From an uncultured Gammaproteobacteria bacterium (GTDB lineage: Bacteria; Pseudomonadota; Gammaproteobacteria; JABCZS01): a stretch of DNA of 64,000 bases. Position numbers and translations under genes: made by a program. The DNA lies in NCBI GenBank assembly GCA_964389615.1, contig CAYMDW010000001.1, forward strand, positions 6,475-70,474, written 5' to 3'. Of this stretch, positions 32,221 through 57,515 are shown piece by piece. Below the pieces are notes generated by a model. That model worked only from the letters and a program-made list of their open reading frames with translations, was not told the origin of the DNA and searched no databases. Each line of letters starts with the position of its first letter. Within the stretch, counting starts at the first letter, position 1.

Positions 32221-32249
32221 ATAATTTAAATTCTTAATCAAATCTGCAA

Positions 32250-32255: not shown

Positions 32256-32335
32256 GCAGGATGTTTAGGAATTGCTAGAGTTTTTTCGCGTTAAATCCCC
32301 CCGATCTGAGGTGCGCGGATGATTTTCACGGGTTT

Positions 32336-32369: not shown

Positions 32370-32375
32370 ATTTAA

Positions 32376-33527: not shown

Positions 33528-33538
33528 ACCCTCTCCCC

Positions 33539-35487: not shown

Positions 35488-35590
35488 GCGGAACGATCCC
35501 TAAATAATACATGTATTTCAAGTGATTATGCAAGTTTGTTCAAGTGAATAATGCGCCAGATTTTCAAAATCTTACGCGACTATGGCACCC

Positions 35591-36559: not shown

Positions 36560-36561
36560 GT

Positions 36562-42315: not shown

Positions 42316-42319
42316 AGTG

Positions 42320-43378: not shown

Positions 43379-43419
43379 GGTGATTCCTCAAGAATTAAGC
43401 GAATGGTCCTGATTCAGCC

Positions 43420-44754
43420 CTACGATTTCAATGCTTCCGTAATGGTTTCCAGTTTTCTACTGCGCGACCCTTTGATCAAAACAGTCATGTGGTCATGCAG
43501 CTTCGGTTTAAGCGCTTCAATCAGCGCTTCTTTGCTATTAAAGTGTAGCCCGCCCTTTCCAAAAGATTGCAGGGTGAGCAGACTTTGTTCGCCGACAGCA
43601 TACACCTGATCGATGCCTAATTCACGCGCCTTTTCACCGACTAATTGATGGTAATGCGCACTTCGCTCCCCAAGCTCCGCCATGTCCCCAAAGACCCAGA
43701 CTTTTTCACCAGGACAGGAGGCTAAAATTTCCAAGGCCGCCATAATTCCGACGGGGCTGCCATTGTAACAATCGTCGATGAGCTTCGCCCGGTTATGCCC
43801 CACATAGACCTGAAGGCGTTTATCGGCGGGTTCCACACTGGCCAAGGCCTGAGCGATGGTCGCCAATGGAATATTGTAAGCCACGGCGACAGCCGTCGCG
43901 GCCAACGCATTATAGATATTATGACGACCGAGCAGCGCCATCTTCAGCGCAAAAGATCCCAAGGGGGTGCGCACCGTGGCCGAGGTTTGCCCACCCGAAG
44001 TGATATGAATGTCCTGGGCAGTGACATCAGCCTCGGGCGAAAAACCAAAACTGATTTGACGAATCTCGTCATGAGCAGCCCGCTGGGCAAACTGCGCATA
44101 AAACTGATCGTCTCTTGGCAAAACAGCGACCCCATGGGGTCGAATGTGAGGGTAAATCGCCCCTTTTTCGATCGCAATTTTATCTGCAGTGCCCATGCCC
44201 TCGACATGAACTTCTGCCACCATCAAAACCATCCCGCAATCGGGTTCAGCCACCCGTGAATTCCGGTCGATTTCACCGGGACTGTTCGCCCCGTTTTCAA
44301 TCACGGCCCACTGATGCTCAGGCTTGAGCTGAAGCAGGGTCATTGGCACGCCAATTTCATTGTTAAAATTCTTTTGCGTGGCCAAGGTAGGACCGACTGC
44401 GCCAAAAATCTTCGCCAGCATATTTTTCGTGGTGGTTTTTCCCGCACTGCCGGTTAGGGTAATCACTTGGGCTGGCATGCGGTTGCGATGCAAGCGCGCG
44501 ATTTCTCCGTAAGCAGCCGTCGTATTGGGAACGAGGCACTGAGGAATATCAACCTCAATGGGATGATCGACCACGGCGATCACGGCCCCCTTGTCTTTGG
44601 CTTGTTGAAGGTAATCATGCCCATCAAACTGTTCGCCCCGCAAGGCCACAAAGGCCGCGCCAGGCACCAGGGTACGGGTGTCTGTAGAAATCGGGCCAGT
44701 AAATGTCTTGAAAAATTCGTTTAAATTCATGAGTTGCTCCGGAGTTGCAAGCAA
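43420..44754 (-). CDS. murF: UDP-MurNAc-tripeptide--D-alanyl-D-alanine ligase
   Basis: Mur ligase P-loop TGSAGKTTTKNM. Confidence 0.9.
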   Translation of the reverse strand: MLATPEQLMNLNEFFKTFTGPISTDTRTLVPGAAFVALRGEQFDGHDYLQQAKDKGAVIAVVDHPIEVDIPQCLVPNTTAAYGEIARLHRNRMPAQVITLTGSAGKTTTKNMLAKIFGAVGPTLATQKNFNNEIGVPMTLLQLKPEHQWAVIENGANSPGEIDRNSRVAEPDCGMVLMVAEVHVEGMGTADKIAIEKGAIYPHIRPHGVAVLPRDDQFYAQFAQRAAHDEIRQISFGFSPEADVTAQDIHITSGGQTSATVRTPLGSFALKMALLGRHNIYNALAATAVAVAYNIPLATIAQALASVEPADKRLQVYVGHNRAKLIDDCYNGSPVGIMAALEILASCPGEKVWVFGDMAELGERSAHYHQLVGEKARELGIDQVYAVGEQSLLTLQSFGKGGLHFNSKEALIEALKPKLHDHMTVLIKGSRSRKLETITEALKS

Positions 44755-46211
44755 TCGCTTGCATAGCTTTTGTCACAAAAATCTATCGTTCGGTCATTTA
44801 AAATTTGCTTGGTTTCGTGGCCCTTGCCCGCGATTAAAATGCAATCTTCAGGGTGCGCGGACTCGATAATCGCCGAAATCGCCTGCCCGCGGTCATGAAT
44901 CACCTTCACGGCAGAATAATTTCCCATGCCCGCCAAAATCTCGTCTGTAATCGAAGCAGCATTTTCAGAGCGCGGATTATCGTCGGTTAAGATCACCTGA
45001 TCACACAGGCGCGCGGCCACTGCTCCCATTTGCGGCCGCTTGCCCTTGTCTCGATCTCCCCCGCAACCAAAAACACCGATCAGTTTGCCGGTGCATAAGG
45101 GCTTCAAGGCTAAGAGGGATTTTTCAAGCGCATCGGGCGTGTGGGCATAATCGATCACCACCAAGGGTTGCCCTTCCACGTGAACGACTTCCAAGCGTCC
45201 CGGCACTGTTTTTAAGGCAGGGATCAAGGCGGTGATTTCCATCAGGCTGAATCCATCCGCCATCATGGCGGCGATCATGGCCAGGATATTGCTGACATTA
45301 AACTCGCCCAATAAGCGAGTGCTGACAGGGAAAGCTTTGTCTAAATAGTGCAGAGTGAAGGTTTGCCCCATCAAACTCGAACGAATATCCGTCACAGACA
45401 AGACAGCCGCCAACCGAGGGTGCGTTTTATTCTGCAGGGTATAACCGATAATGATTTTTTCTTGAGGGATCTGATCGATCATGGCGTAGAAATAGGGACA
45501 GTCTAAATTAACGACGACGTGTTTCACGCTGTTAAAGTGCAATAAACGCGCCTTTGCCTCAGCATAAGCTTCCATGGTGAGGTGGTAATCCAGATGATCA
45601 CGCGTGATTTGAGTCAAGATGGCCACGTCAATATCGACCGCGGATAAGCGGTGCTGGTGGAGCGCATGCGAAGAGGCTTCGAGCGCAATATTCTCGATGC
45701 CCTGATCGCGCAAGGATTTCAGTGTTTCTTGAATCTTGATGGGATCCGGCGTGGTCAGCTGGGCGTTCTTTAAATCCGACAAGACCCCAATGCCTAAGGT
45801 GCCAATCATGGCGATCGGCTCATTCAACATCCCATAGAGTTGGTTCAACCCGTGCACGATGGAAGATTTTCCATTGGTGCCCGTCACAGCGATCACGTGT
45901 TGATCTTCGCTGGGCTTGCCGTGGAAGCGCGCAGCAAGCGCCGACACATGCTCTGCAAGCTTGGGGTAAGCCACGCAAGGGATCGGGGCAGTTTCAAGCC
46001 ATGAAGCTTGTATTGAACTGAGGTGATCTGGATCGTAGACCAGGGCCGCGGCTTGTTGCGCCGCCTGTTCCATGTAATCTCTGCCATCGCCTTGATGACC
46101 AGGATAGGCAAAAAAACAATCCCCGGGTCGAACCGTACGGCTGTCCAAGGCTAAACCTGAAATCTCGACATCAGCGAGTTCCGGGCGTTGTAATAAAGCA
46201 GATAATTTCAT
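44727..46211 (-). CDS. murE: UDP-MurNAc-L-Ala-D-Glu--2,6-diaminopimelate ligase
   Basis: GTNGKSS P-loop. DNPR motif (TDDNPRSE) for the meso-DAP-adding type. Confidence 0.9.
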   Translation of the reverse strand: MKLSALLQRPELADVEISGLALDSRTVRPGDCFFAYPGHQGDGRDYMEQAAQQAAALVYDPDHLSSIQASWLETAPIPCVAYPKLAEHVSALAARFHGKPSEDQHVIAVTGTNGKSSIVHGLNQLYGMLNEPIAMIGTLGIGVLSDLKNAQLTTPDPIKIQETLKSLRDQGIENIALEASSHALHQHRLSAVDIDVAILTQITRDHLDYHLTMEAYAEAKARLLHFNSVKHVVVNLDCPYFYAMIDQIPQEKIIIGYTLQNKTHPRLAAVLSVTDIRSSLMGQTFTLHYLDKAFPVSTRLLGEFNVSNILAMIAAMMADGFSLMEITALIPALKTVPGRLEVVHVEGQPLVVIDYAHTPDALEKSLLALKPLCTGKLIGVFGCGGDRDKGKRPQMGAVAARLCDQVILTDDNPRSENAASITDEILAGMGNYSAVKVIHDRGQAISAIIESAHPEDCILIAGKGHETKQILNDRTIDFCDKSYASDCLQLRSNS

Positions 46212-47923
46212 TGAGCGTTCCGATAAGCAGCTTCGTCGTCTAAGGGGATGTCCATCAAGCGCAAGGCACCCGCCATGATTTCACCAAACACGGGCGCAGC
46301 CACGGCACCCCCATAATATTGTCCGTTGGTAGGATTATCAATCACGACCAAGCAGACTAATCGAGGATGCTCCAGCGGAGCCATGCCCACAAAGGTGCCG
46401 ATGTGCGAATTTTCCAGGTACCCGGTTTCACCCACTTTACGCGCGGTGCCCGATTTTCCTGAGACATGATACCCGCGGACCCGAGCGCCCTGCCCCGAGC
46501 CTCCGTCTTTGGGTTCAATCAATAACATTTCACGCATGTCACGGGCAATTTTCGCATCCACGATTTGCGTGCCTGATTGATTGGCATTTTGTTTAATCAA
46601 GGTGGCAGGAATCGATTTTCCGTCCGCGGCGATCACCGCATAGGCTTTTGCGATCTGCAGAGGCGTGGCTGACATGCGATAACCGAAAGCCAGGGTCGCG
46701 TAAGTGAAAGGATCTAATTTGCGAGTGACATCGAGTTGGCCCGCTCGCTCGCCGGGAAACTCAATCGAGGTGGGGATCCCAAAGCCTAAGCGTCGATACA
46801 GATCAATCAGCTGGTCTTGAGGCACTTCAAACACAATTTTAGCCGTTCCCACGTTACTGGATTTACGCAAAATACCGCGCATGTCGAGTGCGCCATAATC
46901 GTGAATGTCTTTAATCTTATTGTGATTGACGGTCATCTCCCCAGGAGAAGTTTGAACCACGGTATTGGGTGTGGCGACTCCGGCCTCGAGGGCCGCGAGC
47001 ATGCTGAAGGTCTTCATCACAGAACCGGGTTCAAACACGTCGGTGATGGCCCGGTTACGCATGGAATTGGGTTTATAGTCGCGTCGGTTATTCGGATTAT
47101 ACGAAGGCTGATTGACCATGGCTAAAATTTCGCCCGTTTGCACGTCCATCAAGACCACGCTGCCCCCGGCAGCCCCGTGTTGGATCACGGCGTTCTTCAA
47201 GGCGCGGTAAGATAAATATTGCAGACGATTATCGATCGTCAGCTGCAAAGGGCTGCCCTGTTGTGCGGCCTGCAGGGTTTGCAAATCTTGAATGATATGG
47301 CCCCGTCTGTCTTTGAGCACGCGTTTAGAACCGTTGGATCCGGTCAAATAGCGATCGTAGGCTAATTCGATGCCTTCGACTCCTTTCCCATCCAGATTCA
47401 CCGTGCCCAAAACATGGGCCGCGGCTTCGCCCCCGGGATAATAGCGTCGATACTCACGTGTCACGTTCACCCCAGGCACCTTCAAGGCTAAAGCAGCCTT
47501 AGCCTTGCTGGGTTCCATCTGCCGTTTGAGGTAAACGAATTCTTTGCGCTGAGCCAAGGATTCACGAAGACGATCTTTTAAGGTTTGTGGAGAAAGTTCG
47601 AGCGCATCCGCCAAGGCTTTAAGATCTTTGGGGCTGGCGGTGGAAAAGGCATCGGGCACTGCCCAGACCGAATCCACGGGAGTGCTCACGGCCAAAGGTT
47701 CTCCATGACGATCGGTGATGATCCCGCGCAGGGCCTCCAGCTCCACGGTGCGAATGCTGCGCATGTCACCCTGGGCTTGCAAGAAATCTTTGTGCCTCAG
47801 CTGCAAATACATCATGCGAACAGCCACAGCCATGCAAAGTACGCCCAAGGCGCCCAGCACGAAATAATAGCGCCAATGGTATGCGGCCCCGTTTTGTTTG
47901 CCTTTGATCATTGTTTCACCCAA
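46208..47923 (-). CDS. ftsI: peptidoglycan transpeptidase FtsI (PBP3)
   Basis: Single N-terminal TM. Transpeptidase motifs SVMK (STxK), SSN, KSGT. Confidence 0.9.
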   Translation of the reverse strand: MGETMIKGKQNGAAYHWRYYFVLGALGVLCMAVAVRMMYLQLRHKDFLQAQGDMRSIRTVELEALRGIITDRHGEPLAVSTPVDSVWAVPDAFSTASPKDLKALADALELSPQTLKDRLRESLAQRKEFVYLKRQMEPSKAKAALALKVPGVNVTREYRRYYPGGEAAAHVLGTVNLDGKGVEGIELAYDRYLTGSNGSKRVLKDRRGHIIQDLQTLQAAQQGSPLQLTIDNRLQYLSYRALKNAVIQHGAAGGSVVLMDVQTGEILAMVNQPSYNPNNRRDYKPNSMRNRAITDVFEPGSVMKTFSMLAALEAGVATPNTVVQTSPGEMTVNHNKIKDIHDYGALDMRGILRKSSNVGTAKIVFEVPQDQLIDLYRRLGFGIPTSIEFPGERAGQLDVTRKLDPFTYATLAFGYRMSATPLQIAKAYAVIAADGKSIPATLIKQNANQSGTQIVDAKIARDMREMLLIEPKDGGSGQGARVRGYHVSGKSGTARKVGETGYLENSHIGTFVGMAPLEHPRLVCLVVIDNPTNGQYYGGAVAAPVFGEIMAGALRLMDIPLDDEAAYRNAQ

Positions 47924-48189
47924 ACAATTTCGTTGGATTTGGGTGGGTGCATGTTCAACTTCTCATGGGCGATGCGATCAACGCGGCCATCCGTTGCCAA
48001 GGTGGATTGTTCCAATAGTAATTGTGTCCATTCATTGTTCAGAGCGTCTCTGTTCATCTGCAATTGGGATAATTCACTGAACATTTGACGGGTAGCATAC
48101 TTCACGTAAACCATGCTTAAACTGGTGGTCATCAAGCTGGTGCCGATGAACCCGAGTAATAATGTTTGTCCCCATTGATTTTTTTTCAT
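47908..48189 (-). CDS. ftsL: cell division protein FtsL
   Basis: 93 aa bitopic with coiled coil, between rsmH and ftsI. Confidence 0.7.
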   Translation of the reverse strand: MKKNQWGQTLLLGFIGTSLMTTSLSMVYVKYATRQMFSELSQLQMNRDALNNEWTQLLLEQSTLATDGRVDRIAHEKLNMHPPKSNEIVWVKQ

Positions 48190-49115
48190 ACAACCTTCTC
48201 AGCCATGCGCATCATGGCACTTCGAGCTCTGGGATTTTGTTTGACCTCGGCTTCCGAGGCTTTGGATTTGCCGAGTAATTTGATTTCCCCCCCGGTTTTA
48301 TCTGCCAGGATGGGGATATAAAAAGGAATCTCTTCGCCTTGAGAAGCACGTTTCAGGGCTTTTTTAATGGCGCGATCTTCCAAGGAATGGAAGCTGATCG
48401 CGACGAAACGCCCGCCTTTGTTCAGGCAAGCAATGGCTTGCAAGGTCGCAGCTTCGATGTCTTGAATTTCATTGTTGATGAAAATACGAATCCCTTGAAA
48501 ACTCCGCGTGGCGGGATGTTTGAATTTATCACGAACGGGCTGGGCACTCACGATCAAATCAGCCAGGTCTTTTGTGGTGACTAAAGGTTTTTCAGCACGA
48601 CTTTCCACGATTTTGCGAGCGATGCGTTTGGCAAAACGTTCTTCGCCGAATTCTTTGAGGACAAAAGCAATGTCTTCTTCTTTGGCGGAATTCAGCCAAT
48701 CGGCCGCAGAGATCCCTTCGGTGGGATCCATCCGCATGTCCAGAGGACCTTCCTTCATGAAGCTAAAGCCACGTGCGGGATCGTCTAACTGCGGGGACGA
48801 GACCCCCAAATCAAATAAAATTCCGTCCACCTTGCCTAGCCAGCCGAGCTCTTCCACCCAAGTTTGCAGGCGTTTAAAAGAGCCATGACGAATCTCAATC
48901 GGATAACCTTCATTTTGCAAGACCTGGGCCATGTGGATGGCATCGGGGTCCTTGTCGATCACCAGTAAGCGCCCGCCATGAAGCTGTTCCAAAATAGCCA
49001 TGCTGTGTCCGCCGCGACCAAAGGTTGCATCGACATACAAACCCGTGGGTTTGATGTTCAACGCAAGGATGGCTTCATCCCGCAACACGGTGTCATGGAC
49101 AAACAACTTATTCAT
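48186..49115 (-). CDS. rsmH: 16S rRNA m4C1402 methyltransferase
   Basis: VHDTVLRDEAILALNIKPTGLYVDATFGRGGHS SAM-binding motif. Confidence 0.9.
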   Translation of the reverse strand: MNKLFVHDTVLRDEAILALNIKPTGLYVDATFGRGGHSMAILEQLHGGRLLVIDKDPDAIHMAQVLQNEGYPIEIRHGSFKRLQTWVEELGWLGKVDGILFDLGVSSPQLDDPARGFSFMKEGPLDMRMDPTEGISAADWLNSAKEEDIAFVLKEFGEERFAKRIARKIVESRAEKPLVTTKDLADLIVSAQPVRDKFKHPATRSFQGIRIFINNEIQDIEAATLQAIACLNKGGRFVAISFHSLEDRAIKKALKRASQGEEIPFYIPILADKTGGEIKLLGKSKASEAEVKQNPRARSAMMRMAEKVV

Positions 49116-49117
49116 GG

Positions 49118-49573
49118 TTACAAGGACACTCCTTTCAAAACATCGGTCAATTCGTGTAAGTTAACCCCGGATTTTAGCCAGTCTTGGCTGCGTTTTTTCC
49201 AATGGGAAGCATCCCAAAGTTCAAACTTATTACCTTGGCCGAGGAGGATAACATTCTTTGAAAGTTTCGCATAATCATTCAGCAAAGAAGGGATTAAAAT
49301 GCGTCCTTGAGGGTCGGGACTGAGCTCGGTGGCGTGCCCCAAGATCAAACGCTGGATTTGTCTTGTTTGGGGATCTAAATTTGGGAGTGCTAATAAGGCG
49401 GTTTCGATCTTTTCCCAGGCTTTCAGGGGATAGGCTAATAAACATTGTTCGACCACATCAATCGTGATCACGAGATCGGGGCTGGAATGGGCGTCAAGAA
49501 TTTGGCGCAAGCGTGCAGGGAGCATCACTCGCCCCTTCGCGTCCATTGTGACCTGCTGTGCACCCCGAAACAT
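49118..49573 (-). CDS. mraZ: transcriptional regulator MraZ
   Basis: MFRGAQQVTMDAKGRVMLPARLRQ matches E. coli [23 protein letters not shown]. 152 aa from the ATG at 49573. The track GTG at 49594 lies inside the operator. Confidence 0.85.
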   Translation of the reverse strand: MFRGAQQVTMDAKGRVMLPARLRQILDAHSSPDLVITIDVVEQCLLAYPLKAWEKIETALLALPNLDPQTRQIQRLILGHATELSPDPQGRILIPSLLNDYAKLSKNVILLGQGNKFELWDASHWKKRSQDWLKSGVNLHELTDVLKGVSL

Positions 49574-49589
49574 AGACTGCCCCTCTTGC

Positions 49590-49614
49590 TCCACAATTTA
49601 CCACATTTTCCCAC
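49590..49614 (-). promoter_or_regulatory. MraZ-box operator: three GTGG[GTA] direct repeats with 10 bp periodicity upstream of mraZ
   Basis: Minus strand reads GTGGG-aaaat-GTGGT-aaatt-GTGGA, the canonical MraZ-binding-repeat arrangement. A TTGACA hexamer lies further upstream at 49653-49648. Confidence 0.6.
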
Positions 49615-49683: not shown

Positions 49684-49718
49684 GGGTGAATACGCATGGT
49701 ACTCCATGCAATTCACCC
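49684..49718. repeat. palindromic intergenic element, intact copy (GGGGTGAAT-AC-GCATGG-TACT-CCATGC-A-ATTCACCC)
   Basis: Nested inverted repeats give a ~14 bp interrupted stem. The first 28 nt are near-identical to 24609-24636. Confidence 0.5.
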
Positions 49719-49765
49719 GCAAATGTGCAACATTTGACATCCGTTCACAATCCCTGCGGGCTTGC

Positions 49766-49800
49766 GGATAAATTGGCCGGAGTACCGGCCGTATTTATCC
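49766..49800 (-). terminator. stem-loop immediately 3' of rnpB (GGATAAATTGGCCGG-AGTA-CCGGCCGTATTTATCC)
   Basis: 15 bp near-perfect stem. Lies ~20 nt past the rnpB 3' end on the minus strand. Confidence 0.4.
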
Positions 49801-49821
49801 CTACGCACAATTCAAAATTAA

Positions 49822-50169
49822 GTTCAGAGCCGATCGATAAGCCGGGTTCTGTCGTGAACAGCCATTCATCTAGGCCTGGCATCACTGCCAGGCTCAAGCA
49901 ACCTACCCGAACCCAAGCGTGGGTACGCTCTGTGTGGGTTCCTATTTGGTCTTGCTCCAGGTGGGGTTTACCCTGCCACGCTTGTTACCAAACGCGCGGT
50001 GCGCTCTTACCGCACCTTTTCACCCTTACCCCCCGAAAGGGGCGGTATATTTTCTGTGGCACTTTCCGTCGGCTTGCGCCGCCCAGGCGTTACCTGGCAC
50101 CTTACCCAATGGAGCCCGGACTTTCCTCTAAGGACACAAGGCCCCTAGCGGCTGTTTGTTCGACTCTGA
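49822..50169 (-). ncRNA. rnpB: RNase P RNA (bacterial type A)
   Basis: Minus strand contains GAGGAAAGUCCGGGCUCCAUUGGGUAAGGUGCCAGGUAACGCCUGGG, ...GGGUGAAAAGGUGCGGUAAGAGCGCACCGCGCGUUUGGUAACAAGCGUGGCAGGGUAAACCCCACCUGGAGCAAGACCAAAUAGGAACCCACACAGAGCGUACCCACGCUUGGGUUCGGGUAGGUUGCUUGAGCC... and ACAGAACCCGGCUUAUCGAUCGGCUCUGAAC. These are near-identical to E. coli M1 RNA conserved regions (P4, P10-12, P15-18, 3' P1 strand). Confidence 0.85.
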
Positions 50170-50260
50170 GGGGCCTATTCTACGCCTCCCGCCCCTCAGT
50201 CTCAAGCTGAAATCTCAATTCTCATATATAGTAAATCAATGACCCCAAGGAACCGCGTTT

Positions 50261-51574: not shown

Positions 51575-52432
51575 TTGGTTATGAAATACATCGCCCCCGC
51601 TCTCCTCGCCCTCACCAGCGCGACCTGTTTAATCATTGCCCACGCAGGCGATAATGGCCAATTTAATGGCGTCTACCTGGGCGGCGCGATTGGCGGCATG
51701 GTGACCTCTGCTAACATGGACAGCGCTTCTGAATTTACCGTGGATGGGGGCGATTTTTTCAATTCAGCCGCCTACAGAACGGCTGGCAGTGATAGTTTTT
51801 ATGGCACCGTCACTGAAAACAGTTCTGACTCCCTATCCACCCAGTCTACGGTTTGGACAGCACGTCTGGGCTACGGTTCAGGCATTTATGATTGGCCCTT
51901 ATGGTTGGGGCTTGAGATTTTCGGTGATTTTGGCGATCGCGAAATCGAGCAAAACGGCTTTGGGGAATACGGTCCCATCGCAGTCTCGCATTGGAGTGAA
52001 ATGAGCCTCAATCAAAATGAATTCGGGATTGATTTTCGACCCGGTATTCTCGTCACCCCCAGCAGTTTATTGTATGCCCGGGTAGGTTTTGCCTACAACA
52101 TCCTCCACCTGGATTCAACAGTCGAGGGGTACTATTATGGTGAGCCTTCCGCGCTGAATATGGATGAAAGCGAGAAGGTCTTCGGCCTCAGACTCGGGGC
52201 AGGATTCGAACAAAAGATGAGCTGTAATCTTTCTTTTAGTCTGGATTATATCTACACAGATTATGGCAATATCAGCAACTCCGGCTCCTATGATAATCTT
52301 TACCTTCGTCAAGTCTGCTTTCAACCCGACTGCGGCGAATACATTGCTGGCTCAAGCGATGTGGATCGGGTCAAAACCCAAGCGGTCATGTTAGGCGTGA
52401 ATTATTACCCGATGGCCAAAGGTTGTGAATGA
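51575..52432 (+). CDS. outer-membrane beta-barrel protein (OmpA-like/porin PF13505-type; Legionellales MOMP-like), paralog 1
   Basis: Signal peptide. Alternating amphipathic beta pattern. C-terminus ...AVMLGVNYYPMAKGCE. ~45% similar to the 53888-54757 product. Confidence 0.45.
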   Translation: MVMKYIAPALLALTSATCLIIAHAGDNGQFNGVYLGGAIGGMVTSANMDSASEFTVDGGDFFNSAAYRTAGSDSFYGTVTENSSDSLSTQSTVWTARLGYGSGIYDWPLWLGLEIFGDFGDREIEQNGFGEYGPIAVSHWSEMSLNQNEFGIDFRPGILVTPSSLLYARVGFAYNILHLDSTVEGYYYGEPSALNMDESEKVFGLRLGAGFEQKMSCNLSFSLDYIYTDYGNISNSGSYDNLYLRQVCFQPDCGEYIAGSSDVDRVKTQAVMLGVNYYPMAKGCE

Positions 52433-53829
52433 AGTTTCGCTACAGTCTGATCGCATTCCTGACGGTGATGGTGTATTCGAATATTTTCACGATTCCTTTT
52501 TTGTACAGTGAAAATTTTTTAATCTCTCAGGATCTCATTCAAGATCTGGGCTTGTTTTTCGACAAGCTCGCTGGGCAAGAGTGGAAAGCCCTGCTCTCGC
52601 GGCCGCTTTCCACGCTCAGCTTTGCCCTGAATTTCGCCTGGGGCGGAAAAAACCCTGCAAGCTACCACCTGGTGAATTTGATCATTCATTTAATCAATGT
52701 GTTTGGGGTGTATGCGATCGCACAACGCTTTTTTAAATTTCCTCTGATCTCTGCCTCGCTCTTTGCCCTGCATCCCATCGGCACCTCTTGTGTGAGTCAA
52801 ATCTTTGGTCGCTCTTATTCGCTGGGCACCTGTTTTATGCTGGGGGCACTCTATGTTTATCTGGCCGCAAAAGAGCGGAAGGATCTGACCCTAAAAACCG
52901 CAGCCCTCTTGACTGGATTATTCGTGTTGATGCTGTTGTCCAAACAAAGCTTCGTCTTTTTCCCCTTCATTTTGATTTGGCACCGGATGCAAAGCCCGAT
53001 CAAATTCGACATTAAGATTCCCCTCTTGTTGGCGGGGATTGGCGCAGTCACCCTTTTTTACATTCAATTTTATGCCGCGCCTTTTTCGGCCCGGGCAGCC
53101 GTCGACAGCCAGACCTTCGCGCTCTCGCAATTGGGCAATATTTACAAGCTGGTGACCTTTTATTTTTCCCCCTTTCAAACTGCCTTGCGCCATGAGCTGC
53201 CTTTTTACACACACTTTTTTTCACCCTACGTCTTACTGGGTTTTTCTTACCTCCTGGGTTATTTGACTTTGGCGATTTATTTTAGAAAGAGCCCTCTCGG
53301 CTTTTTAATGGGTGCCCTCTTGTTATCCCTGCTGCCAACCAATTCGATTTTCCCCAAAGACGAGGTCATTCTTGAATGGCGGCTCTACCCCAGTTTGGTT
53401 TTTTTCTGTTTGTTGATGGGGCAGCTCTGTGAGGCCTCTCAACACTATTGGAAACCTATCGCCAAGCCTGCTTGTTTACTTTATCTGGTTTATTTAATGT
53501 CTTTTGCGTGGACCATTCGTGAGACCAATCAACATTACCAAAGCAATGTCAGTGCCTGGGAAGAAGTGCGTTCGCGCTACCCTTACTCAGCTAACCCTCT
53601 TAATAATTTAGGGGTGATTTATTCAAGCAAGCACGAATATCTTCGCGCTCAGGAATATTTTCGCATGGCCTCAGAGATGAATCCTCGATCGAGCGTTTAC
53701 AAAATGAATTTAGCAAAGACAGAACTTTCTCTGGGGCATACCCGTTTGAGTGAGAAATTATTCGAGGAAGGCTTGGCCTTGCAATCGCAATACGGGCAGC
53801 AAGTGGTCAGCGTTTACATGCGGCATTGA
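52429..53829 (+). CDS. polytopic membrane protein with C-terminal TPR repeats; GT-C-like glycosyltransferase (TMTC/PMT/DUF1736-type architecture)
   Basis: N-terminal ~11 TM segments with HLVNLIIHLINVFGVYAIAQ (TMTC/DUF1736-like motif). C-terminal TPR-like NNLGVIYSSKHEYLRAQEYFRMASEMNPRSSVYKMNLAKT. The start overlaps the upstream OMP stop as ATGA. Confidence 0.45.
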   Translation: MKFRYSLIAFLTVMVYSNIFTIPFLYSENFLISQDLIQDLGLFFDKLAGQEWKALLSRPLSTLSFALNFAWGGKNPASYHLVNLIIHLINVFGVYAIAQRFFKFPLISASLFALHPIGTSCVSQIFGRSYSLGTCFMLGALYVYLAAKERKDLTLKTAALLTGLFVLMLLSKQSFVFFPFILIWHRMQSPIKFDIKIPLLLAGIGAVTLFYIQFYAAPFSARAAVDSQTFALSQLGNIYKLVTFYFSPFQTALRHELPFYTHFFSPYVLLGFSYLLGYLTLAIYFRKSPLGFLMGALLLSLLPTNSIFPKDEVILEWRLYPSLVFFCLLMGQLCEASQHYWKPIAKPACLLYLVYLMSFAWTIRETNQHYQSNVSAWEEVRSRYPYSANPLNNLGVIYSSKHEYLRAQEYFRMASEMNPRSSVYKMNLAKTELSLGHTRLSEKLFEEGLALQSQYGQQVVSVYMRH

Positions 53830-53887
53830 TTATCAACAATCCTATTCTATACTCAAGTCACTGCCCATCCAATGTTAGGAGCTTTCT

Positions 53888-54757
53888 ATGCACTCCACTT
53901 CCGGAAAAATAATAACGAGTTTGACTGCCGCCTTGCTGGGTCTAAGCACTGTCGGCGCAGTGATCATCGCACAAGCGAAAGACAATACCCAGTTCAATGG
54001 GGTTTACATGGGTCTGTCTGCAGGGGGATTGAACACTGCGATGGATTTGGAAAGTTTGTCTACTTACAACTTTAATCAGAGTTCCTACTCACCTGAAAGT
54101 GTCACCTCCGACTCCTACCAAGAAGCCAATGATACCTCAACGGTATGGGCTGGAAGACTGGGCTATGGAACGAACATCTACGATTCGATTGCCTGGCTAG
54201 GATTAGAAATTTTTGGGAATCTTGCTAACAGAGAAGTAGAGAATGACAGCTTTAAGATTCATCCATCCCTTGTAGAGGTGATGAGCGATACTCAAGCCTC
54301 ACTAAATAATGGCGAATATGGAATTGATTTGAAGCCCGGCGTTTTGCTTGGTTCTAGCAGTTTGCTTTATGCGAGAATCGGCGCTGCTTTTAACATATTA
54401 CGTGTCAACTCAGAGGTTTTTGGCGATAATAACCCATATCACTATCATACCTATCTTCCCCTCAATCTGAACCTGCAAGAAAGCAAGCATGTCACAGGAT
54501 TACGCTTAGGCCTAGGTTTTGAGCAAAAAGTCTCTTGCCAACTCTCCTTTGCTCTCGATTATATTTATACGACTTACGGCAGCATCAGTAACTCGGGCAG
54601 TGGCTATAATGTGTACGAAGAATTCAATAACAACGGCAGAACATCTCCGCATGCATACGCTAGCCTCAACACCTCCAACGAAGCTGAAAACGTCAAAACC
54701 AATGCTGTGATGTTGGGCGTTAATTATTATCCTATGGTGAATGATTGCAAACAATGA
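53888..54757 (+). CDS. outer-membrane beta-barrel protein, paralog 2
   Basis: Signal peptide. Same architecture and shared blocks as paralog 1 (NGVYMGLSAGG, WAGRLGYGTNIYD, LLYARIGAAFNIL, GLRLGLGFEQKVSCQLSFALDYIYT, NAVMLGVNYYPM). Confidence 0.45.
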   Translation: MHSTSGKIITSLTAALLGLSTVGAVIIAQAKDNTQFNGVYMGLSAGGLNTAMDLESLSTYNFNQSSYSPESVTSDSYQEANDTSTVWAGRLGYGTNIYDSIAWLGLEIFGNLANREVENDSFKIHPSLVEVMSDTQASLNNGEYGIDLKPGVLLGSSSLLYARIGAAFNILRVNSEVFGDNNPYHYHTYLPLNLNLQESKHVTGLRLGLGFEQKVSCQLSFALDYIYTTYGSISNSGSGYNVYEEFNNNGRTSPHAYASLNTSNEAENVKTNAVMLGVNYYPMVNDCKQ

Positions 54758-56334
54758 AGTCATTTTTAAGTATTAGCTTATTGTCTGTGGCTGTAGCAGT
54801 ATGGGGGGCTCCTTCTTCTCAAGAGGTTTTTGGCCGAGCCCAAAGCACTCTGGAAGCGTTTCAGGGAGCCCCCCTGATTTCTGCTAACTGGGAAGGTCGT
54901 TTTCGCCCGTATTTGTATACAGAGGGGAAATTCAATCCCCTCTTTCCCGCTGAGCTCTCGAATCAATATCCTCAAACGGATTTTTTAAACCCGAAACCGC
55001 TCAATGACTCACAATTTTTGATCTACGCTGAAACATTGGGTCAGGCCAATTCGGATCTTCTTGTCTTTGATGACTCTTCCAAAAAAATTCAAAAGATCTC
55101 GTACACCGCCCACACGGAACCTGGTTGGTATGATCACAGCTGTGTCTCTCGAGATAACAACCTGATCTCAATGCCGACAAAAACGGGCCAAGCTTTTTTT
55201 AAACTTGATTTCACTCGCCTCAGCGCCGATCCGATCGATGCGGGCGGATCAGCTCCTGCTTTCTCTCATTGCCTTTGGGTCAATCCAACTACTCTGCTAG
55301 GATTATCGAAAAATAATAAACTTTATCATTGTGAATTCGGGAACGAATCTGCTTCCTGCCAAGCCACTCTCGCCTTGACTGGCTTTGTCTCCACCAGCCA
55401 ATTTTTTCAAGATAAATCCGGTCGCCCCGGCGTGATCGGCATCCAAAAAGGCGAGACCTTCAAACAAGCCTATGTCCTTTCCAAGGACTATACGAAAGCC
55501 ACCCTTCTCAAGACTCCCATGAAATTAATGGGGGATATTTTAGATGTTCAACAAGGGCATTTTCGCGTCGGCCTGCATGGACGTTTTGTGACGGATTTAA
55601 CCCGAGACCCCGCTCCCAAAGACATTATTTCTCGGTTTAAAAAAATTGGGGACACTTGGTATGCGATTGCGACGAATGCGCAGTATCCCCGAACCTTGGC
55701 CGTGCTTGAAAAAGAGGCCTGGAAATTCTTGCCCTATCATCCACCGGTCTCGAGTTCCATTCAAACCCCAGTAGAAGTCATTACAAAATCTGCGACGGGA
55801 AAACATTATCAATCCTTTCTATATGGCCCAGCCACGAATAAAAAAGTCGTGGTTTGGTTGCACGGGGGGCCGCACGAAAGTTTTTCTCCCCGCTTTCATC
55901 CTTATATTTACAGTTTGAATGAGAAAGGCTACTCCGTCTTAGCAGTGAATTACCCTGGCAGCACAGGCCGTGGACTCGCTTATTCACAAGCCACCTCTTC
56001 GCATTACCACCTGGATTGCATGCAATCGATCGCTCAGTATTTAAAAGAGAATCAGGCAGAAGAAATTGTGGTCTGGTCAGTGTCTTATGGAGATAAACTT
56101 CAAAAAGACATGTTGGAGCATGATTTTCCGATCAGCAAAGTCGTGGATCAGGTCGGCGTCCTTCCCAAAGGGGTCTTGAAACAATTGGCCCAAGAAAAGA
56201 GTGTTCCTTATTTTTCGATTCGAGGGAAATACGATACGCTTTCTTCGGCAGAAGGCGCGGATTTTGTGTACGAGGGCGCACATGATCTGACGTATTATCA
56301 GGATTTTGAGCGGTTGATGGGGATGTTCATGTAA
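54754..56334 (+). CDS. secreted S9-family (prolyl-oligopeptidase/DPP-IV-like) serine peptidase
   Basis: Signal peptide. VVWLHGGPHESF...VNYPGSTGRG...VVWSVSYGD matches the S9 HGGP / NYRGSxGYG / GxSYGG pattern, with substitutions. The start overlaps the upstream OMP stop as ATGA. Confidence 0.5.
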   Translation: MKSFLSISLLSVAVAVWGAPSSQEVFGRAQSTLEAFQGAPLISANWEGRFRPYLYTEGKFNPLFPAELSNQYPQTDFLNPKPLNDSQFLIYAETLGQANSDLLVFDDSSKKIQKISYTAHTEPGWYDHSCVSRDNNLISMPTKTGQAFFKLDFTRLSADPIDAGGSAPAFSHCLWVNPTTLLGLSKNNKLYHCEFGNESASCQATLALTGFVSTSQFFQDKSGRPGVIGIQKGETFKQAYVLSKDYTKATLLKTPMKLMGDILDVQQGHFRVGLHGRFVTDLTRDPAPKDIISRFKKIGDTWYAIATNAQYPRTLAVLEKEAWKFLPYHPPVSSSIQTPVEVITKSATGKHYQSFLYGPATNKKVVVWLHGGPHESFSPRFHPYIYSLNEKGYSVLAVNYPGSTGRGLAYSQATSSHYHLDCMQSIAQYLKENQAEEIVVWSVSYGDKLQKDMLEHDFPISKVVDQVGVLPKGVLKQLAQEKSVPYFSIRGKYDTLSSAEGADFVYEGAHDLTYYQDFERLMGMFM

Positions 56335-57515
56335 CGCTGCGCGCGAATCACATACAACAGCATCATCAAACCCACAGAAATAATCGCCATCAGAATGATC
56401 CCTATGTTTTGAAATGATCCTGCATAACAATAGCCTGCGACTTGCAAAGCCAGCCCCGTCACGATCAATTTAATCGCCTGAAGGAGTGCGGAAATTTTTC
56501 CCTTGGCCTTGGGCATCAGGTTCAGGACAATCGGGTACAAAATCGTACTGGGAATAATCAAGCCCACAATAAAGACGAGAAAGGTCACCGTGATCCAAAC
56601 TGGACTCGACGAATCCACGGCTGTCACCCAGCCAAGGCCCAGCAGACTTACCATAAAAACCCAACAAGAAGCATAGAGCGTTTTCTCTTGATTTAAGCGA
56701 TTCAAAACAAAACCAAAAAGAAGACTGCCTACAGCAAAAGCCATGGCAAAGGCCCCTTGATAATAACCAAAATGGGCAAGACTGACCCCCAAATCTTCAA
56801 TGAAAAGTAAGGGCGACATTCCCACAAATACCCAATAAGGCACGAACAAAAAAACAAGACAGAGAATCGATAAAAACGTTGTCTTCGATCGGAAAATAGG
56901 AAAATACCCTCGAAGAGAGAGCGTTTCTTTTTCATCCGGCAATGTCGTTTGAGGAATGAAGCATAAGGTCAAGACAAAGACAATCAACCCCAGAATCAGC
57001 AAAGCTGCAAAATTGCCTTGCCAATTGAAATATAAGGTAAGGTAACTCCCGGCAATGGGGGCTGCCCCGACCGTGGCATTAATCACCCCATTTAAGATCG
57101 CCATTAAAAATTGTTGTTCTTTGATCGGATAAGTGTCTGCAATAATCAAAAAACAAAGCGAGCCCGGTGCAGCAATCCCCACGCCTTGAAAAAATCTCCC
57201 TGCAAGCAAAGAGAAAAAATTCCCAGCAAAAAGACAGAACAGAGTGCCAAGTATAAAAATCACCAACCCAAACAGAATAATAGGTTTTCGACCGTACCGA
57301 TCGGCCAAGGGCCCCACAAAAAACAGACTCAAACAAAGCCCAACGAAGTTGACAGACAAGAGAGCCTCTAACCAAAAGGGGGTTAGTTCAAATTGTGATT
57401 GCAATTGAGGAAAACTGGGGACAAACACATCAAGCTCCGCCCCAGCCAAAATTTCCATCAAAATGACTGTAAAAAAGAGCAATGCTTTGGTAAGTGACTT
57501 ATTTATCTTTATCAT
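56298..57515 (-). CDS. MFS efflux transporter (Bcr/CflA-like)
   Basis: 12 TM segments. GPLADRYGRKPIILFGL MFS motif A. Confidence 0.7.
   Translation of the reverse strand: MIKINKSLTKALLFFTVILMEILAGAELDVFVPSFPQLQSQFELTPFWLEALLSVNFVGLCLSLFFVGPLADRYGRKPIILFGLVIFILGTLFCLFAGNFFSLLAGRFFQGVGIAAPGSLCFLIIADTYPIKEQQFLMAILNGVINATVGAAPIAGSYLTLYFNWQGNFAALLILGLIVFVLTLCFIPQTTLPDEKETLSLRGYFPIFRSKTTFLSILCLVFLFVPYWVFVGMSPLLFIEDLGVSLAHFGYYQGAFAMAFAVGSLLFGFVLNRLNQEKTLYASCWVFMVSLLGLGWVTAVDSSSPVWITVTFLVFIVGLIIPSTILYPIVLNLMPKAKGKISALLQAIKLIVTGLALQVAGYCYAGSFQNIGIILMAIISVGLMMLLYVIRAQRYMNIPINRSKS

What the first reader, a model, noticed from the sequence alone, without database searches (positions are those of the whole stretch)
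51575..56334. Two-module cluster of a beta-barrel OMP stop/start-overlapped (ATGA) with a TPR-bearing GT-C-like membrane enzyme, and a paralogous OMP overlapped with a secreted S9 peptidase
Four co-oriented genes form two modules with identical junction architecture. OMP paralog 1's stop overlaps the start of a polytopic membrane protein with C-terminal TPRs (gaATGAag at 52429-52432). OMP paralog 2's stop overlaps the start of a signal-peptide-bearing S9 peptidase (caATGAag at 54754-54757). The polytopic protein has a TMTC/PMT-like HLVNLIIHL motif, the architecture of eukaryotic O-mannosyltransferases. The two OMPs are paralogs (~45% similar) ending in ...LGVNYYPM followed by a short Cys-containing tail. 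The arrangement suggests a dedicated surface-protein maturation system (glycosylation and/or proteolytic processing of a porin-like antigen), or a pair of OMP-partner export units. I know of no described system with this composition.
Basis: inference. Interest (0 to 1): 0.6.

Follow-up and report, generated by a model that had tools for sequence, protein, structure and literature searches.

The report
Membrane protein, serine hydrolase, porin cluster
The four genes are real and their linkage is conserved, but the evidence points to a rare, undescribed cell-envelope module tied to the cell wall (peptidoglycan), built from a glycosyltransferase-like membrane protein that lacks the usual catalytic acids and a secreted serine hydrolase, not to a plain porin-mannosylation system.

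Summary
All four co-oriented genes, both ATGA overlaps, the OMP paralogy (46% identity) and the Cys tails are confirmed. The neighbourhood is conserved. The conserved core is the pair: polytopic TPR membrane protein plus secreted hydrolase. They are adjacent in at least 15 distinct loci across Gammaproteobacteria, Myxococcota/"delta", Bdellovibrionota and others, and fused into one ORF once.

The hydrolase is a very rare S9C-like family (beta-propeller plus alpha/beta hydrolase, Ser447-Asp497-His513 intact). It has about 37 full-length representatives among 1.84 billion and no Pfam or NCBIfam model. Elsewhere it is fused to O-antigen-ligase-like (Wzy_C) membrane domains, and to two unrelated MurNAc-L-Ala amidase domains. 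It also sits beside GT51 transglycosylases and an SLT lytic transglycosylase.

The membrane protein is homologous to TMTC/PMT/ArnT GT-C enzymes. In every hydrolase-linked member, though, the catalytic Asp (DD to Ser27-Glu28), the HPxxTE Glu and the metal-binding Glu (KE to Lys172-Gln173) are replaced.

The OMP travels with the pair only in a gammaproteobacterial clade (four loci, three arrangements).

Best reading: a peptidoglycan/outer-membrane-interface remodelling module with the OMPs as clade-specific clients. O-mannosylation is weakly supported. The biochemistry is untested.

The parts
51581..52432 (+). OMP paralog 1. Small beta-barrel outer-membrane protein of the PF13505 opacity/Omp25-like family, 283 aa from ATG 51581 (the ORF opens at TTG 51575). 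Signal peptide, predicted mature N-terminus GDNGQF, C-terminus ...LGVNYYPMAKGCE.
   Evidence: (PF13505, 5e-12)
52429..52432 (+). ATGA overlap of the OMP1 stop with the start of the membrane-protein gene.
52429..53829 (+). GT-C-like (TMTC/PMT/ArnT-related) inner-membrane protein, 466 aa. About 11 TM helices (residues 1-369) plus a short periplasmic TPR domain (373-455). Non-canonical periplasmic-face motifs: Y26-S27-E28 in place of FDD; H115-P-I-G-T-S120 in place of HPxxTE; K172-Q173 in place of KE; E316-W-R318-L-Y320.
   Evidence: motif definitions from PMC7801869
53830..53887 (+). 58-nt intergenic gap with a sigma-70-like match (TTGATT-16-TATACT at 53826-53853) and a ribosome-binding-like AGGAG before OMP2. 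A possible internal promoter.
   Evidence: consensus match only
53888..54757 (+). OMP paralog 2, 289 aa, PF13505. Predicted mature N-terminus KDNTQF, C-terminus ...LGVNYYPMVNDCKQ.
54754..54757 (+). ATGA overlap of the OMP2 stop with the start of the hydrolase gene.
54754..56334 (+). Secreted S9C-like (acylaminoacyl-peptidase-like) serine hydrolase, 526 aa from ATG 54754 (529 aa from TTG 54745; residue numbers below use the 529-aa frame). Signal peptide; beta-propeller at about 37-360 with four invariant Cys (133, 176, 196, 205); alpha/beta-hydrolase domain at 365-529 with HGGP (373-376), NYPGSTGRG (402-410), Ser447 (W-S-V-S-Y-G), Asp497 and His513.

Best explanation
The cluster is a lineage-specific version of a rare, widely scattered two-part periplasmic module.

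Part 1 is an inner-membrane protein derived from the TMTC/PMT/ArnT GT-C fold, with a short periplasmic TPR domain. It keeps the residues that in GT-C enzymes hold the phosphate of a polyprenyl-phosphate carrier (Lys172, Arg318, Tyr320). It has lost the canonical catalytic Asp and the metal-binding Glu. I therefore infer that it works as a lipid-carrier/glycan-binding platform or a non-canonical transferase, and that it docks the partner enzyme or a client through its TPRs. It is probably not a classical O-mannosyltransferase.

Part 2 is a secreted S9C-type serine hydrolase (beta-propeller gate plus alpha/beta hydrolase) with an intact Ser-Asp-His triad. It cleaves an amide or ester bond in a peptidoglycan-associated substrate.

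The two parts act together at the periplasmic face of the inner membrane. Elsewhere, the same hydrolase uses an O-antigen-ligase-like (Wzy_C-TPR) membrane module in place of part 1.

In this gammaproteobacterial clade the module is tied to a small family of PF13505 beta-barrel OMPs. Here that OMP gene is duplicated, and each copy is translationally coupled to one enzyme gene. The OMPs are most likely the clade-specific client or partner. The module would then mature or remodel the connection between these OMPs and the peptidoglycan, or trim the OMPs themselves.

Shown by the evidence: gene structure, family assignments, residue conservation, and conserved linkage and fusions.
Inferred: physical cooperation of the two parts, peptidoglycan-related chemistry, and the OMP as client.
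Untested: every enzymatic activity.
For: 1. Linkage of hydrolase and GT-C-like gene.
- They are adjacent in L001, L002, L003/L004, L011, L013, L014 and L018. L028 has a divergent S9 instead.
- Same-contig pairs, inferred mainly from matching contig lengths: P0143/P0021 (overlapping genes), P0128/P0007 and P0144/P0023.
- In the reciprocal metagenome scan starting from the membrane protein, the hydrolase is adjacent in 9 of 15 loci.
- In L024 the two are fused in frame in one ORF.

2. Alternative membrane partner. Wzy_C(-TPR)-hydrolase fusions occur in L015, L017, L020, P0154, P0160, P0163, P0164 and P0174. A separate, divergent Wzy_C gene lies beside the hydrolase in L007, L021 and L023.

3. 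Peptidoglycan link.
- Amidase_3 is fused C-terminally in P0127, P0129-P0131, P0153, P0163 and L012.
- The unrelated Amidase_2 is fused N-terminally in P0165.
- A monofunctional GT51 Transgly overlaps the GT-C-like gene in L047, L049 and L053. Another follows the hydrolase in L011, with an SLT lytic transglycosylase next to it, and one lies near the hydrolase in L046.
- In an Oligoflexia relative the GT-C-like gene sits beside an OmpA-domain beta-barrel OMP.

4. Hydrolase identity. Full-length Foldseek matches to acylaminoacyl peptidases (E 4e-22, TM 0.71-0.73). Profile hits to POP and AAP at 1e-7. Ser447 and Asp497 are invariant and His513 nearly invariant, with HGGP and NYPGSTGRG present.

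5. GT-C-like identity and its changed site. The window protein hits FDD-bearing relatives at E 1e-16 to 1e-23 over 85-95% of its length, and some of those hit PMT_2 or PMT. The model has pLDDT 93, with 11 TM helices plus TPRs. Every hydrolase-linked copy carries x-E / KQ / EWRLYP and none carries DD / KE.

6. OMP linkage. An OMP paralog lies next to the pair in the window, L001, L002 and L039, in three different arrangements and with different flanks.
Against: - No activity has been measured for any component.
- The OMP link is confined to one clade. It is absent within 8 kb in L003 and in all non-gammaproteobacterial loci.
- L038, a syntenic relative, has the two OMP genes in tandem between rnpB and rsmI with no enzyme genes between them, so the OMPs do not strictly need adjacent enzymes.
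- Several hydrolase genes have no membrane partner within 8-10 kb: L005, L006, L019.
- Some GT-C-like genes have no family hydrolase nearby: L040, L045, L048.
- Glu28 and Glu316 are invariant in the alignment A5 of 27 members and could provide catalysis, so an active, unusual glycosyltransferase is not excluded.
- The peptidoglycan inference is guilt by association.
Confidence: 0.45

Rival explanations
1. The membrane protein is an active TMTC/PMT-type O-glycosyltransferase that uses a polyprenyl-phosphate sugar to glycosylate the Ser/Thr-rich loops of the adjacent OMPs. The S9 peptidase then trims them. Together they form a dedicated OMP maturation system.
For: - The architecture is that of TMTCs (GT-C TM domain plus C-terminal TPRs) and the HxxNxxxH and LFALHP motifs are shared.
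- JGI's automatic name for the identical protein is 'protein O-mannosyl-transferase'.
- The hydrolase's two alternative partners are GT-C-TPR and Wzy_C-TPR domains, the two membrane folds known to carry out periplasmic protein O-glycosylation (PMT/TMTC type and PglL type; own knowledge).
- The OMPs have S/T-rich stretches such as SSDSLSTQSTVW and SSYSPESVTSDS.
- The OMP travels with the pair in four loci.
Against: - The first Asp of the EL1 motif is Ser27. The KE metal ligand is Gln173. The HPxxTE Glu is Ser120. This holds in all linked relatives. PMC7801869 states that these positions are critical for catalysis and that substitutions cause loss of function.
- In the L024 fusion even Glu28 and Glu316 are replaced.
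- Most lineages that carry the pair have no linked OMP.
- The amidase and transglycosylase associations are not explained by this model.
Confidence: 0.15
2. The pair acts on peptidoglycan or lipid II alone, for example by trimming or removing stem peptides on nascent glycan strands, or by turning over wall peptides. The OMPs are bystanders, or serve only as a pore, and stay adjacent for regulatory or historical reasons.
For: - All non-gammaproteobacterial loci lack the OMP but carry Amidase_2/Amidase_3 fusions, GT51, SLT and an Amidohydro_3-like neighbour.
- In L038 the OMP pair sits alone at the same rnpB-rsmI locus. This suggests the enzyme genes were inserted into a pre-existing OMP locus.
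- S9 carboxypeptidases are among the structural matches (8wt1, 7ep9).
Against: - An OMP paralog accompanies the pair in four gammaproteobacterial loci, with three different gene orders and unrelated flanks. Such persistence is hard to explain without selection for linkage.
- Both window junctions are ATGA-coupled.
- An unrelated, peptidoglycan-binding OMP flanks the GT-C-like gene in Oligoflexia.
Confidence: 0.22
3. There is no functional unit. Four envelope genes lie side by side by chance and share ordinary operon overlaps.
For: ATGA overlaps are common. The only Pfam hits are to generic families.
Against: Adjacency is conserved across phyla, gene fusions exist, and the reciprocal scan recovers the partner.
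Confidence: 0.03

Closest known systems
TMTC1-4 (eukaryotic O-mannosyltransferases), with PMT (GT39) and ArnT (GT83), in the GT-C superfamily
   Same: - N-in polytopic domain of about 11 TM helices followed by lumenal/periplasmic TPRs.
- Conserved positions map onto the TMTC motifs M2 (..RP), M4 Lys, M6 (PTNSxxP) and M7 (ExRxY). They also include HxxNxxxH and LFALHPxxT, the latter matching TMTC3's LLFAVHPIHT.
- Relatives hit PMT_2 and PMT.
- ArnT is the best non-TPR fold match.
   Different: - Only about 2.5 TPRs.
- No DUF1736 hit and no direct Pfam hit for the TM domain.
- M1 DD is S-E, the M4 Glu is Gln, and the HPxxTE Glu is Ser/Ala.
- It is obligately linked to an S9-like hydrolase, which is not known for TMTC, PMT or ArnT.
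- Activity is unknown.
Acylaminoacyl peptidase / S9C prolyl-oligopeptidase-family enzymes (e.g. Aeropyrum pernix AAP, PDB 1ve6, 3o4g)
   Same: Beta-propeller plus alpha/beta hydrolase over the full length (TM 0.71-0.73). HGGP and N-Y-x-G-S-T-G-x-G motifs. Ser-Asp-His in the canonical order.
   Different: - About 14% identity.
- Below Pfam's S9 threshold (19.8 bits against 22.6).
- The nucleophile elbow is S-x-S-x-G/A rather than G-x-S-x-G-G.
- The catalytic domain is short, about 165 aa.
- Four invariant Cys in the propeller, and a secreted protein.
- The family is tiny, about 37 representatives, and is fused or linked to membrane and peptidoglycan-hydrolase domains.
Wzy_C family (O-antigen ligase WaaL, PglL O-oligosaccharyltransferases)
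   Same: In other lineages the hydrolase family uses this membrane module, also followed by TPRs, in place of the GT-C-like protein. Like GT-C enzymes, it handles undecaprenyl-linked glycans at the periplasmic face (established knowledge).
   Different: The window protein is not a Wzy_C member. It has no PF04932 hit, and the GT-C-like HMM does not detect the Wzy_C partners.
Beta-barrel OMP tethering to peptidoglycan in Lpp-less proteobacteria (Coxiella BbpA/BbpB, Legionella MOMPs, made by LD-transpeptidases), and DpaA, which detaches Lpp
   Same: It concerns small beta-barrel OMPs and peptidoglycan in Legionellales-type Gammaproteobacteria. Tethered N-termini begin with G or K (GGPDYV..., GGIEVPH, GTVGEA..., KTPAPP...; PMC11841132). 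The predicted mature N-termini here are GDNGQF and KDNTQF.
   Different: No LD-transpeptidase is part of this cluster. No evidence exists that these OMPs are tethered. The enzymes are from entirely different families. This resemblance is only a lead.
PF13505 OMP_b-brl proteins (opacity/Omp25/Omp31-like)
   Same: Both OMPs score above the gathering threshold. JGI names the identical OMP2 'opacity protein-like surface antigen'.
   Different: The subfamily is very small: 4 clusters by word search, plus L001, L002 and L039. It has a YYP end followed by a short tail, M-x-x-(x)-C-x in four members.

Membership tests
GT-C glycosyltransferases (TMTC/PMT/ArnT clan) | Polytopic N-in membrane domain with a long first periplasmic loop and 11-13 TM helices. 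| tested here: met
   AlphaFold model, pLDDT 93, pTM 0.92. The helix order is consistent with 11 TM helices, with EL1 at 22-75 and EL4 at 227-265.
GT-C glycosyltransferases (TMTC/PMT/ArnT clan) | Detectable homology to curated GT-C families or to solved GT-C structures. | tested here: inconclusive
   - The window TM domain has no Pfam hit and the TM-only profile has no PDB sequence hit.
- It does align at E 1e-16 to 1e-23 over 85-95% of its length with FDD-type relatives. Of the 15 sequences in the TM-only alignment A3, 3 hit PMT_2 (1.4e-5) and 1 hits PMT (3e-7).
- Foldseek: ArnT 5f15 TMq 0.37, STT3 TMq 0.32.
GT-C glycosyltransferases (TMTC/PMT/ArnT clan) | Catalytic Asp at the first position of the EL1 DD/DE motif (motif M1 of PMC7801869). 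| tested here: not met
   Ser27-Glu28 in the window. It is S/T/N/F/V/Y followed by E in nearly all subfamily members and hydrolase-linked copies examined (the exceptions are P0030, FND, and the L024 fusion, below). Eight canonical relatives keep FDD. The L024 fusion lacks even the Glu.
GT-C glycosyltransferases (TMTC/PMT/ArnT clan) | Metal-binding Glu of motif M4, KE(T/Q)xxT. | tested here: not met
   Lys172-Gln173, with KQ invariant in the subfamily. Canonical relatives have KE (one has RE).
GT-C glycosyltransferases (TMTC/PMT/ArnT clan) | Phosphate-binding Lys (M4) and Arg/Tyr (M7, ERxxY). | tested here: met
   Lys172, Arg318 and Tyr320 are invariant. Their roles are taken from PMC7801869.
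GT-C glycosyltransferases (TMTC/PMT/ArnT clan) | Transfer of a sugar from a polyprenyl-phosphate donor. | not testable with these tools
   Requires biochemistry.
TMTC-type architecture | C-terminal TPR domain on the non-cytoplasmic side, and a DUF1736 loop. | tested here: inconclusive
   TPRs are present (TPR_12 at 1.7e-6, TPR_1 at 2e-5; helices 373-455) and lie after an odd number of TM helices. There are only about 2.5 repeats and no DUF1736 hit.
Peptidase family S9 (prolyl oligopeptidase family, S9C-like) | N-terminal beta-propeller plus C-terminal alpha/beta-hydrolase fold. | tested here: met
   Model pLDDT 90. Full-length Foldseek matches to acylaminoacyl peptidases, E 4e-22, TM 0.71-0.73.
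Peptidase family S9 (prolyl oligopeptidase family, S9C-like) | Ser-Asp-His triad in that order, after strands beta5, beta7 and beta8. | tested here: met
   Ser447 and Asp497 are invariant and His513 is at least 90% conserved in 24 sequences. They follow strands 440-446, 489-494 and 507-509.
Peptidase family S9 (prolyl oligopeptidase family, S9C-like) | Signature motifs HGGP, N-x-R/P-G-S-x-G-x-G and G-x-S-x-G-G. | tested here: inconclusive
   HGGP (373-376) and NYPGSTGRG (402-410) are present and align to POP and AAP. The nucleophile elbow is W-S-V-S-Y-G, that is S-x-S-x-G.
Peptidase family S9 (prolyl oligopeptidase family, S9C-like) | Curated family threshold (Pfam PF00326; NCBIfam). | tested here: not met
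   19.8 bits against a cut-off of 22.6. No NCBIfam hit. The family profile hits POP and AAP only at about 1e-7.
Peptidase family S9 (prolyl oligopeptidase family, S9C-like) | Peptidase activity and specificity (MEROPS assignment). | not testable with these tools
   No MEROPS library or assay was available.
OMP_b-brl (PF13505) | Score above the gathering threshold, and a signal peptide. | tested here: met
   46.7 and 46.9 bits against 28.7. Hydrophobic N-termini end in AHA and AQA.
Peptidoglycan-tethered beta-barrel OMPs (BbpA/MOMP type) | Covalent link from mDAP to the mature N-terminal residue. | not testable with these tools
   There is only a resemblance of the predicted N-termini (G.., K..) to published tether peptides. 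In relatives the N-termini vary (R, V, Q, K).

The most novel reading that the evidence does not exclude
The S9C-like hydrolase and its membrane partner (GT-C-like-TPR or Wzy_C-TPR) form a previously unrecognised periplasmic machine. It works on undecaprenyl-linked or nascent peptidoglycan and on proteins attached to it. In the Lpp-less gammaproteobacterial clade it would control the covalent OMP-peptidoglycan tether. One route is acylaminoacyl-peptidase-type cleavage of the N-terminal residue that is amide-linked to mDAP, a 'de-tethering' enzyme analogous to DpaA for Lpp. Another is serine-acyl-enzyme transpeptidation of the OMP tail onto a carrier-bound acceptor. The GT-C-like protein would be a catalytically repurposed pseudo-glycosyltransferase that presents the substrate.
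Probability: 0.12. Interest if true: 0.8.

Novelty: new variant of a known kind. Interest (0 to 1): 0.55.

Why it matters
If the module acts at the peptidoglycan / outer-membrane interface, three things follow.

1. It would add a new enzyme pair to cell-envelope remodelling in lineages that lack Braun's lipoprotein: Legionellales-like Gammaproteobacteria, Myxococcota and Bdellovibrionota.
2. It would give a function to an S9-type hydrolase family that has no curated model.
3. It would supply a natural example of a GT-C fold whose catalytic acids have been replaced while the protein stays strongly conserved. That bears on how GT-C enzymes work and on how automatic pipelines label such proteins 'protein O-mannosyl-transferase'.

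The fusions to Wzy_C, Amidase_2 and Amidase_3 make the hypothesis directly testable.

Tried and rejected
- Exact look-up of the window's membrane protein returned nothing, so the organism could not be named. Cluster look-up gave only JGI function names.
- Foldseek of the membrane-protein model against the PDB was swamped by TPR proteins.
- The full-length profile against PDB sequences gave only TPR hits. The TM-only profile gave none.
- NCBIfam gave nothing for the OMPs or the hydrolase.
- The idea that the 544-aa neighbour of the Oligoflexia GT-C-like gene is a divergent member of the hydrolase family was rejected. It gives no HMM hit and is a beta-barrel/PEGA/OmpA protein.
- The idea that a conserved x-Asp mature N-terminus, as in Brucella Omp25, marks these OMPs was dropped, because the N-termini vary among relatives.
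- An Amidohydro_3-like neighbour seen in six other loci has no counterpart in the window.
- Three literature searches for this gene combination found no description of it.
- Large stop-free ORFs on the opposite strands of GC-rich loci were treated as shadows and ignored.

Full report
**1. Observation**

The ORF listing finds four consecutive + strand ORFs: 51575-52432, 52429-53829, 53888-54757 and 54745-56334. The two ATGA junctions were read directly: gaATGAag at 52429-52432 and caATGAag at 54754-54757. The likely true starts are ATG 51581 for OMP1, which follows AAGGA, and ATG 54754 for the hydrolase, which matches the 526-aa database entry P0121.

Both small proteins hit PF13505 OMP_b-brl above threshold. 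They are 46% identical and end in LGVNYYPM followed by a Cys-bearing tail. The 466-aa protein has C-terminal TPR hits only. The 529-aa protein has sub-threshold S9 and alpha/beta-hydrolase hits at residues 365-449.

The ATGA overlap is the commonest operon overlap and is not remarkable in itself. A promoter-like match lies in the 58-nt gap before OMP2.

**2. Is the neighbourhood conserved?**

Yes. The two closest relatives of the membrane protein are P0002 (52% identity) and P0003 (47%). Both lie in the order hydrolase, then membrane protein, then a convergent OMP (L001 and L002). Their hydrolases are 46% and 45% identical to the window's, and their OMPs 38-40% identical. In L039 a hydrolase with 50% identity has a divergent OMP homolog directly upstream. 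In L003/L004 the membrane protein and the hydrolase are divergent neighbours with no OMP within 8 kb. The flanking genes differ in every case, so the genes move as a set.

L038 is a syntenic relative. Its order is rnpB, OMP, OMP, then rsmI and lpoA, and it carries only the two tandem OMP genes where the window has the interleaved four genes plus two MFS genes, an enoyl-CoA hydratase and a GS-like gene.

**3. The conserved core is the membrane protein plus the hydrolase**

A scan of species-representative genomes with the hydrolase profile gave 30 loci. Searches with tblastn and HMMs show the membrane protein adjacent in L001, L002, L011, L013, L014 and L018. L028 has a divergent S9 instead. 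In L024 (Bacteriovoracaceae) the two are fused in one reading frame. Three further pairs appear to share a contig, inferred from matching contig lengths: P0143/P0021, P0128/P0007 and P0144/P0023. For P0143/P0021 the gene list confirms overlapping genes.

The reciprocal scan of metagenome contigs, starting from the membrane-protein subfamily, found 15 loci. The family hydrolase is the immediate divergent neighbour in L042/43, L044, L046, L050/51, L052, L055 and L056.

Taxa represented include uncultured Gammaproteobacteria, 'delta'/Myxococcota, Bdellovibrionota, Binatia and Competibacteraceae. No family other than the two enzymes and an Amidohydro_3-like protein recurs across the non-gammaproteobacterial loci. 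The PF13505 OMP appears only in the gammaproteobacterial clade.

**4. The hydrolase**

The word-indexed search found 26 clusters among 5.8 billion proteins, none with a precomputed Pfam domain other than a fused Amidase_3. The exhaustive HMM search of 1.84 billion representatives found only 59 hits at E 1e-30 or better, of which about 37 are full-length members. Below them there is a sharp gap to generic S9 proteins.

The alignment has invariant Ser447 (in W-S-x-S), invariant Asp497 and nearly invariant His513. It also shows HGGP, NYPGSTGRG, and four invariant Cys in the N-terminal domain. The family profile hits prolyl oligopeptidase and acylaminoacyl peptidase at about 1e-7 through the HGGP...GSTGxG region.

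The AlphaFold model (pLDDT 90) is a beta-propeller followed by a compact alpha/beta hydrolase, with the triad residues after the expected strands. Foldseek matches acylaminoacyl peptidases over the full length (E 4e-22, TM 0.71-0.73) and also S9 carboxypeptidases.

It is therefore a secreted, probably active, S9C-like serine hydrolase. It falls below Pfam's S9 threshold and has no NCBIfam model.

**5. Domain architectures of the hydrolase family**

- About 22 representatives are stand-alone proteins.
- P0154, P0160, P0163, P0164 and P0174, and the ORFs in L015, L017 and L020, carry an N-terminal Wzy_C (O-antigen-ligase-like) membrane domain.
- P0163 reads Wzy_C, a weak TPR, the hydrolase, then Amidase_3.
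- A separate Wzy_C gene lies divergent to the hydrolase in L007, L021 and L023.
- Amidase_3 is fused C-terminally in P0127, P0129-P0131, P0153 and L012.
- The unrelated Amidase_2 is fused N-terminally in P0165.

Two non-homologous MurNAc-L-Ala amidase domains joined to the same hydrolase family are a strong pointer to peptidoglycan.

Gene neighbours agree with this. A monofunctional GT51 transglycosylase overlaps the start of the GT-C-like gene by 14 nt in L047, L049 and L053, with a canonical S9 peptidase divergent upstream. Another GT51 follows the hydrolase in L011 and is itself followed by an SLT lytic transglycosylase. A further one lies near the hydrolase in L046.

In an Oligoflexia relative (L040/L041) the GT-C-like gene has no hydrolase within 8 kb. 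Its divergent neighbour is a beta-barrel protein with a C-terminal OmpA peptidoglycan-binding domain.

**6. The membrane protein**

The window protein has 274 homologs at E 1e-3 or better. Close ones are 460-500 aa. More distant ones, at E 1e-16 to 1e-23 with 85-95% coverage, carry many TPRs, and some carry PMT_2 or PMT. The model (pLDDT 93, pTM 0.92) has about 11 TM helices and five C-terminal TPR helices. The order of helices puts every conserved motif on the periplasmic side, as in the TMTC topology of PMC7801869.

Using that paper's motifs, 28 members including the window protein form a distinct subfamily:

| Motif | Canonical relatives | This subfamily |
|---|---|---|
| M1 (EL1) | F-D-D | Y-S-E |
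| HPxxTE | HPxxTE(A/S)V | HPLATACV (window: HPIGTSCV) |
| M4 | K-E | K-Q |
| M7 | (D/E)-R-x-x-Y | R-E-W-R-L-Y-P |

Eight canonical relatives in the same alignment keep FDD, TE and KE, apart from single substitutions in two of them (TQ in P0033, RE in P0053). Every GT-C-like gene found next to the hydrolase is of the x-E/KQ type. The L024 fusion has lost even Glu28 and Glu316. The phosphate-binding Lys172, Arg318 and Tyr320 stay invariant.

PMC7801869 reports that all GT-C transferases recovered in its homology search have the first Asp of the DD motif, that these positions are critical with substitutions causing loss of function, and that the M4 Glu binds the metal.

**7. The OMPs**

The family is very small. 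The word search found only the two window paralogs and a tandem pair on L038. tblastn adds L001, L002 and L039. Four members end in YYP followed by M-x-x-(x)-C-x. L001 and L002 end in DFDF and GIGFDD.

The predicted mature N-termini, GDNGQF and KDNTQF, resemble published N-termini of peptidoglycan-tethered beta-barrel proteins of Coxiella and Legionella, which begin with G or K (PMC11841132). Relatives vary at this position, so this is only a lead.

**8. Interpretation**

Shown:
- a conserved, sometimes fused pair of a GT-C-like membrane protein and an S9C-like hydrolase;
- interchangeability of the membrane partner with Wzy_C-TPR modules;
- repeated fusion or adjacency to peptidoglycan hydrolases and synthases;
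- clade-specific linkage to a PF13505 OMP.

Inferred:
- the two proteins work together at the periplasmic face of the inner membrane;
- the substrate is a peptidoglycan-associated amide or ester bond;
- in this clade the OMPs are the client or partner.

The missing catalytic Asp and metal ligand count against it, and it does not explain the peptidoglycan associations.

My literature searches found no description of this combination.

**9. Verdict**

This is a new variant built from known folds. Interest is moderate to high for envelope biology, and everything functional is still untested.

Noticed in passing
window 49822-50167 (-): Bacterial RNase P RNA class A (342 bits) lies between mraZ and the MFS gene. 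The 174-aa ORF at 49686-50210 (+) is a spurious reading across it. The same rnpB sequence begins contig L038, which made the synteny comparison possible.
   Followed up: yes
window 56298-56334: The 3' end of the hydrolase gene overlaps the convergent MFS transporter gene (56298-57515, -) by 37 nt. The window's hydrolase also ends about 15-20 residues earlier than its relatives, which continue ...PFLAQAKPWTY.
   Followed up: partly
window 58398-59714 (-): A 438-aa ORF whose only hit is a short, weak match to the glutamine synthetase catalytic domain (PF00120, 3.5e-6, residues 222-258). It is an odd protein wedged between an enoyl-CoA hydratase gene and rsmI.
   Followed up: no
window about 32000-49600 (-) and 59720-62409: By eye, the cluster lies between the start of a division/cell-wall (dcw) gene cluster (mraZ 49118-49594, rsmH 48186-49115, ftsL 47908-48189, with long ORFs further upstream) and rsmI (59720-60562) plus a 611-aa ORF at 60574-62409. 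That ORF corresponds in position to the LppC/LpoA-family gene next to rsmI in L038. Both flanking blocks are related to peptidoglycan synthesis. These genes were not scanned individually against family libraries.
   Followed up: partly
L003 10331-17662 and L004 5034-12365: A giant HEAT-repeat protein of more than 2600 aa lies about 700 nt downstream of the hydrolase, separated from it by a 112-aa ORF, in the relative that lacks a linked OMP.
   Followed up: no
L002 5415-7157 (P0003): The GT-C-like protein of this relative carries a low-complexity tandem insertion (QFPSLREQFPSSRAQFPSSRAQFPSSRTQFPSLRAQ...) in a loop after TM4, and a 40-residue N-terminal extension.
   Followed up: no
L046 4149-5933 (-) and 785-2638 (+): A Sulfatase-family (PF00884) membrane protein sits between the hydrolase and the GT51 transglycosylase. 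A GDSL/SGNH hydrolase with a weak AlgX-like match lies beyond them. This suggests a larger envelope-modification cluster in that lineage.
   Followed up: no
L011 5973-7409, L012 2520-4010, L014, L017, L024 4939-6366, L046 10167-11579: A protein of about 480 aa, weakly Amidohydro_3-like, recurs next to the pair in six non-gammaproteobacterial loci. It has no counterpart in the window.
   Followed up: partly
L013 1763-4321 (-) and L018 1344-3932 (-): In these Myxococcota/'delta' loci the stop-free ORF holding the GT-C-like protein runs about 380 residues past the TPR domain, with no Pfam hit there. This could be a real C-terminal extension or an artefact of GC-rich sequence.
   Followed up: no
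window 22639-22710 (-): A single tRNA gene (Rfam, 66.6 bits).
   Followed up: no
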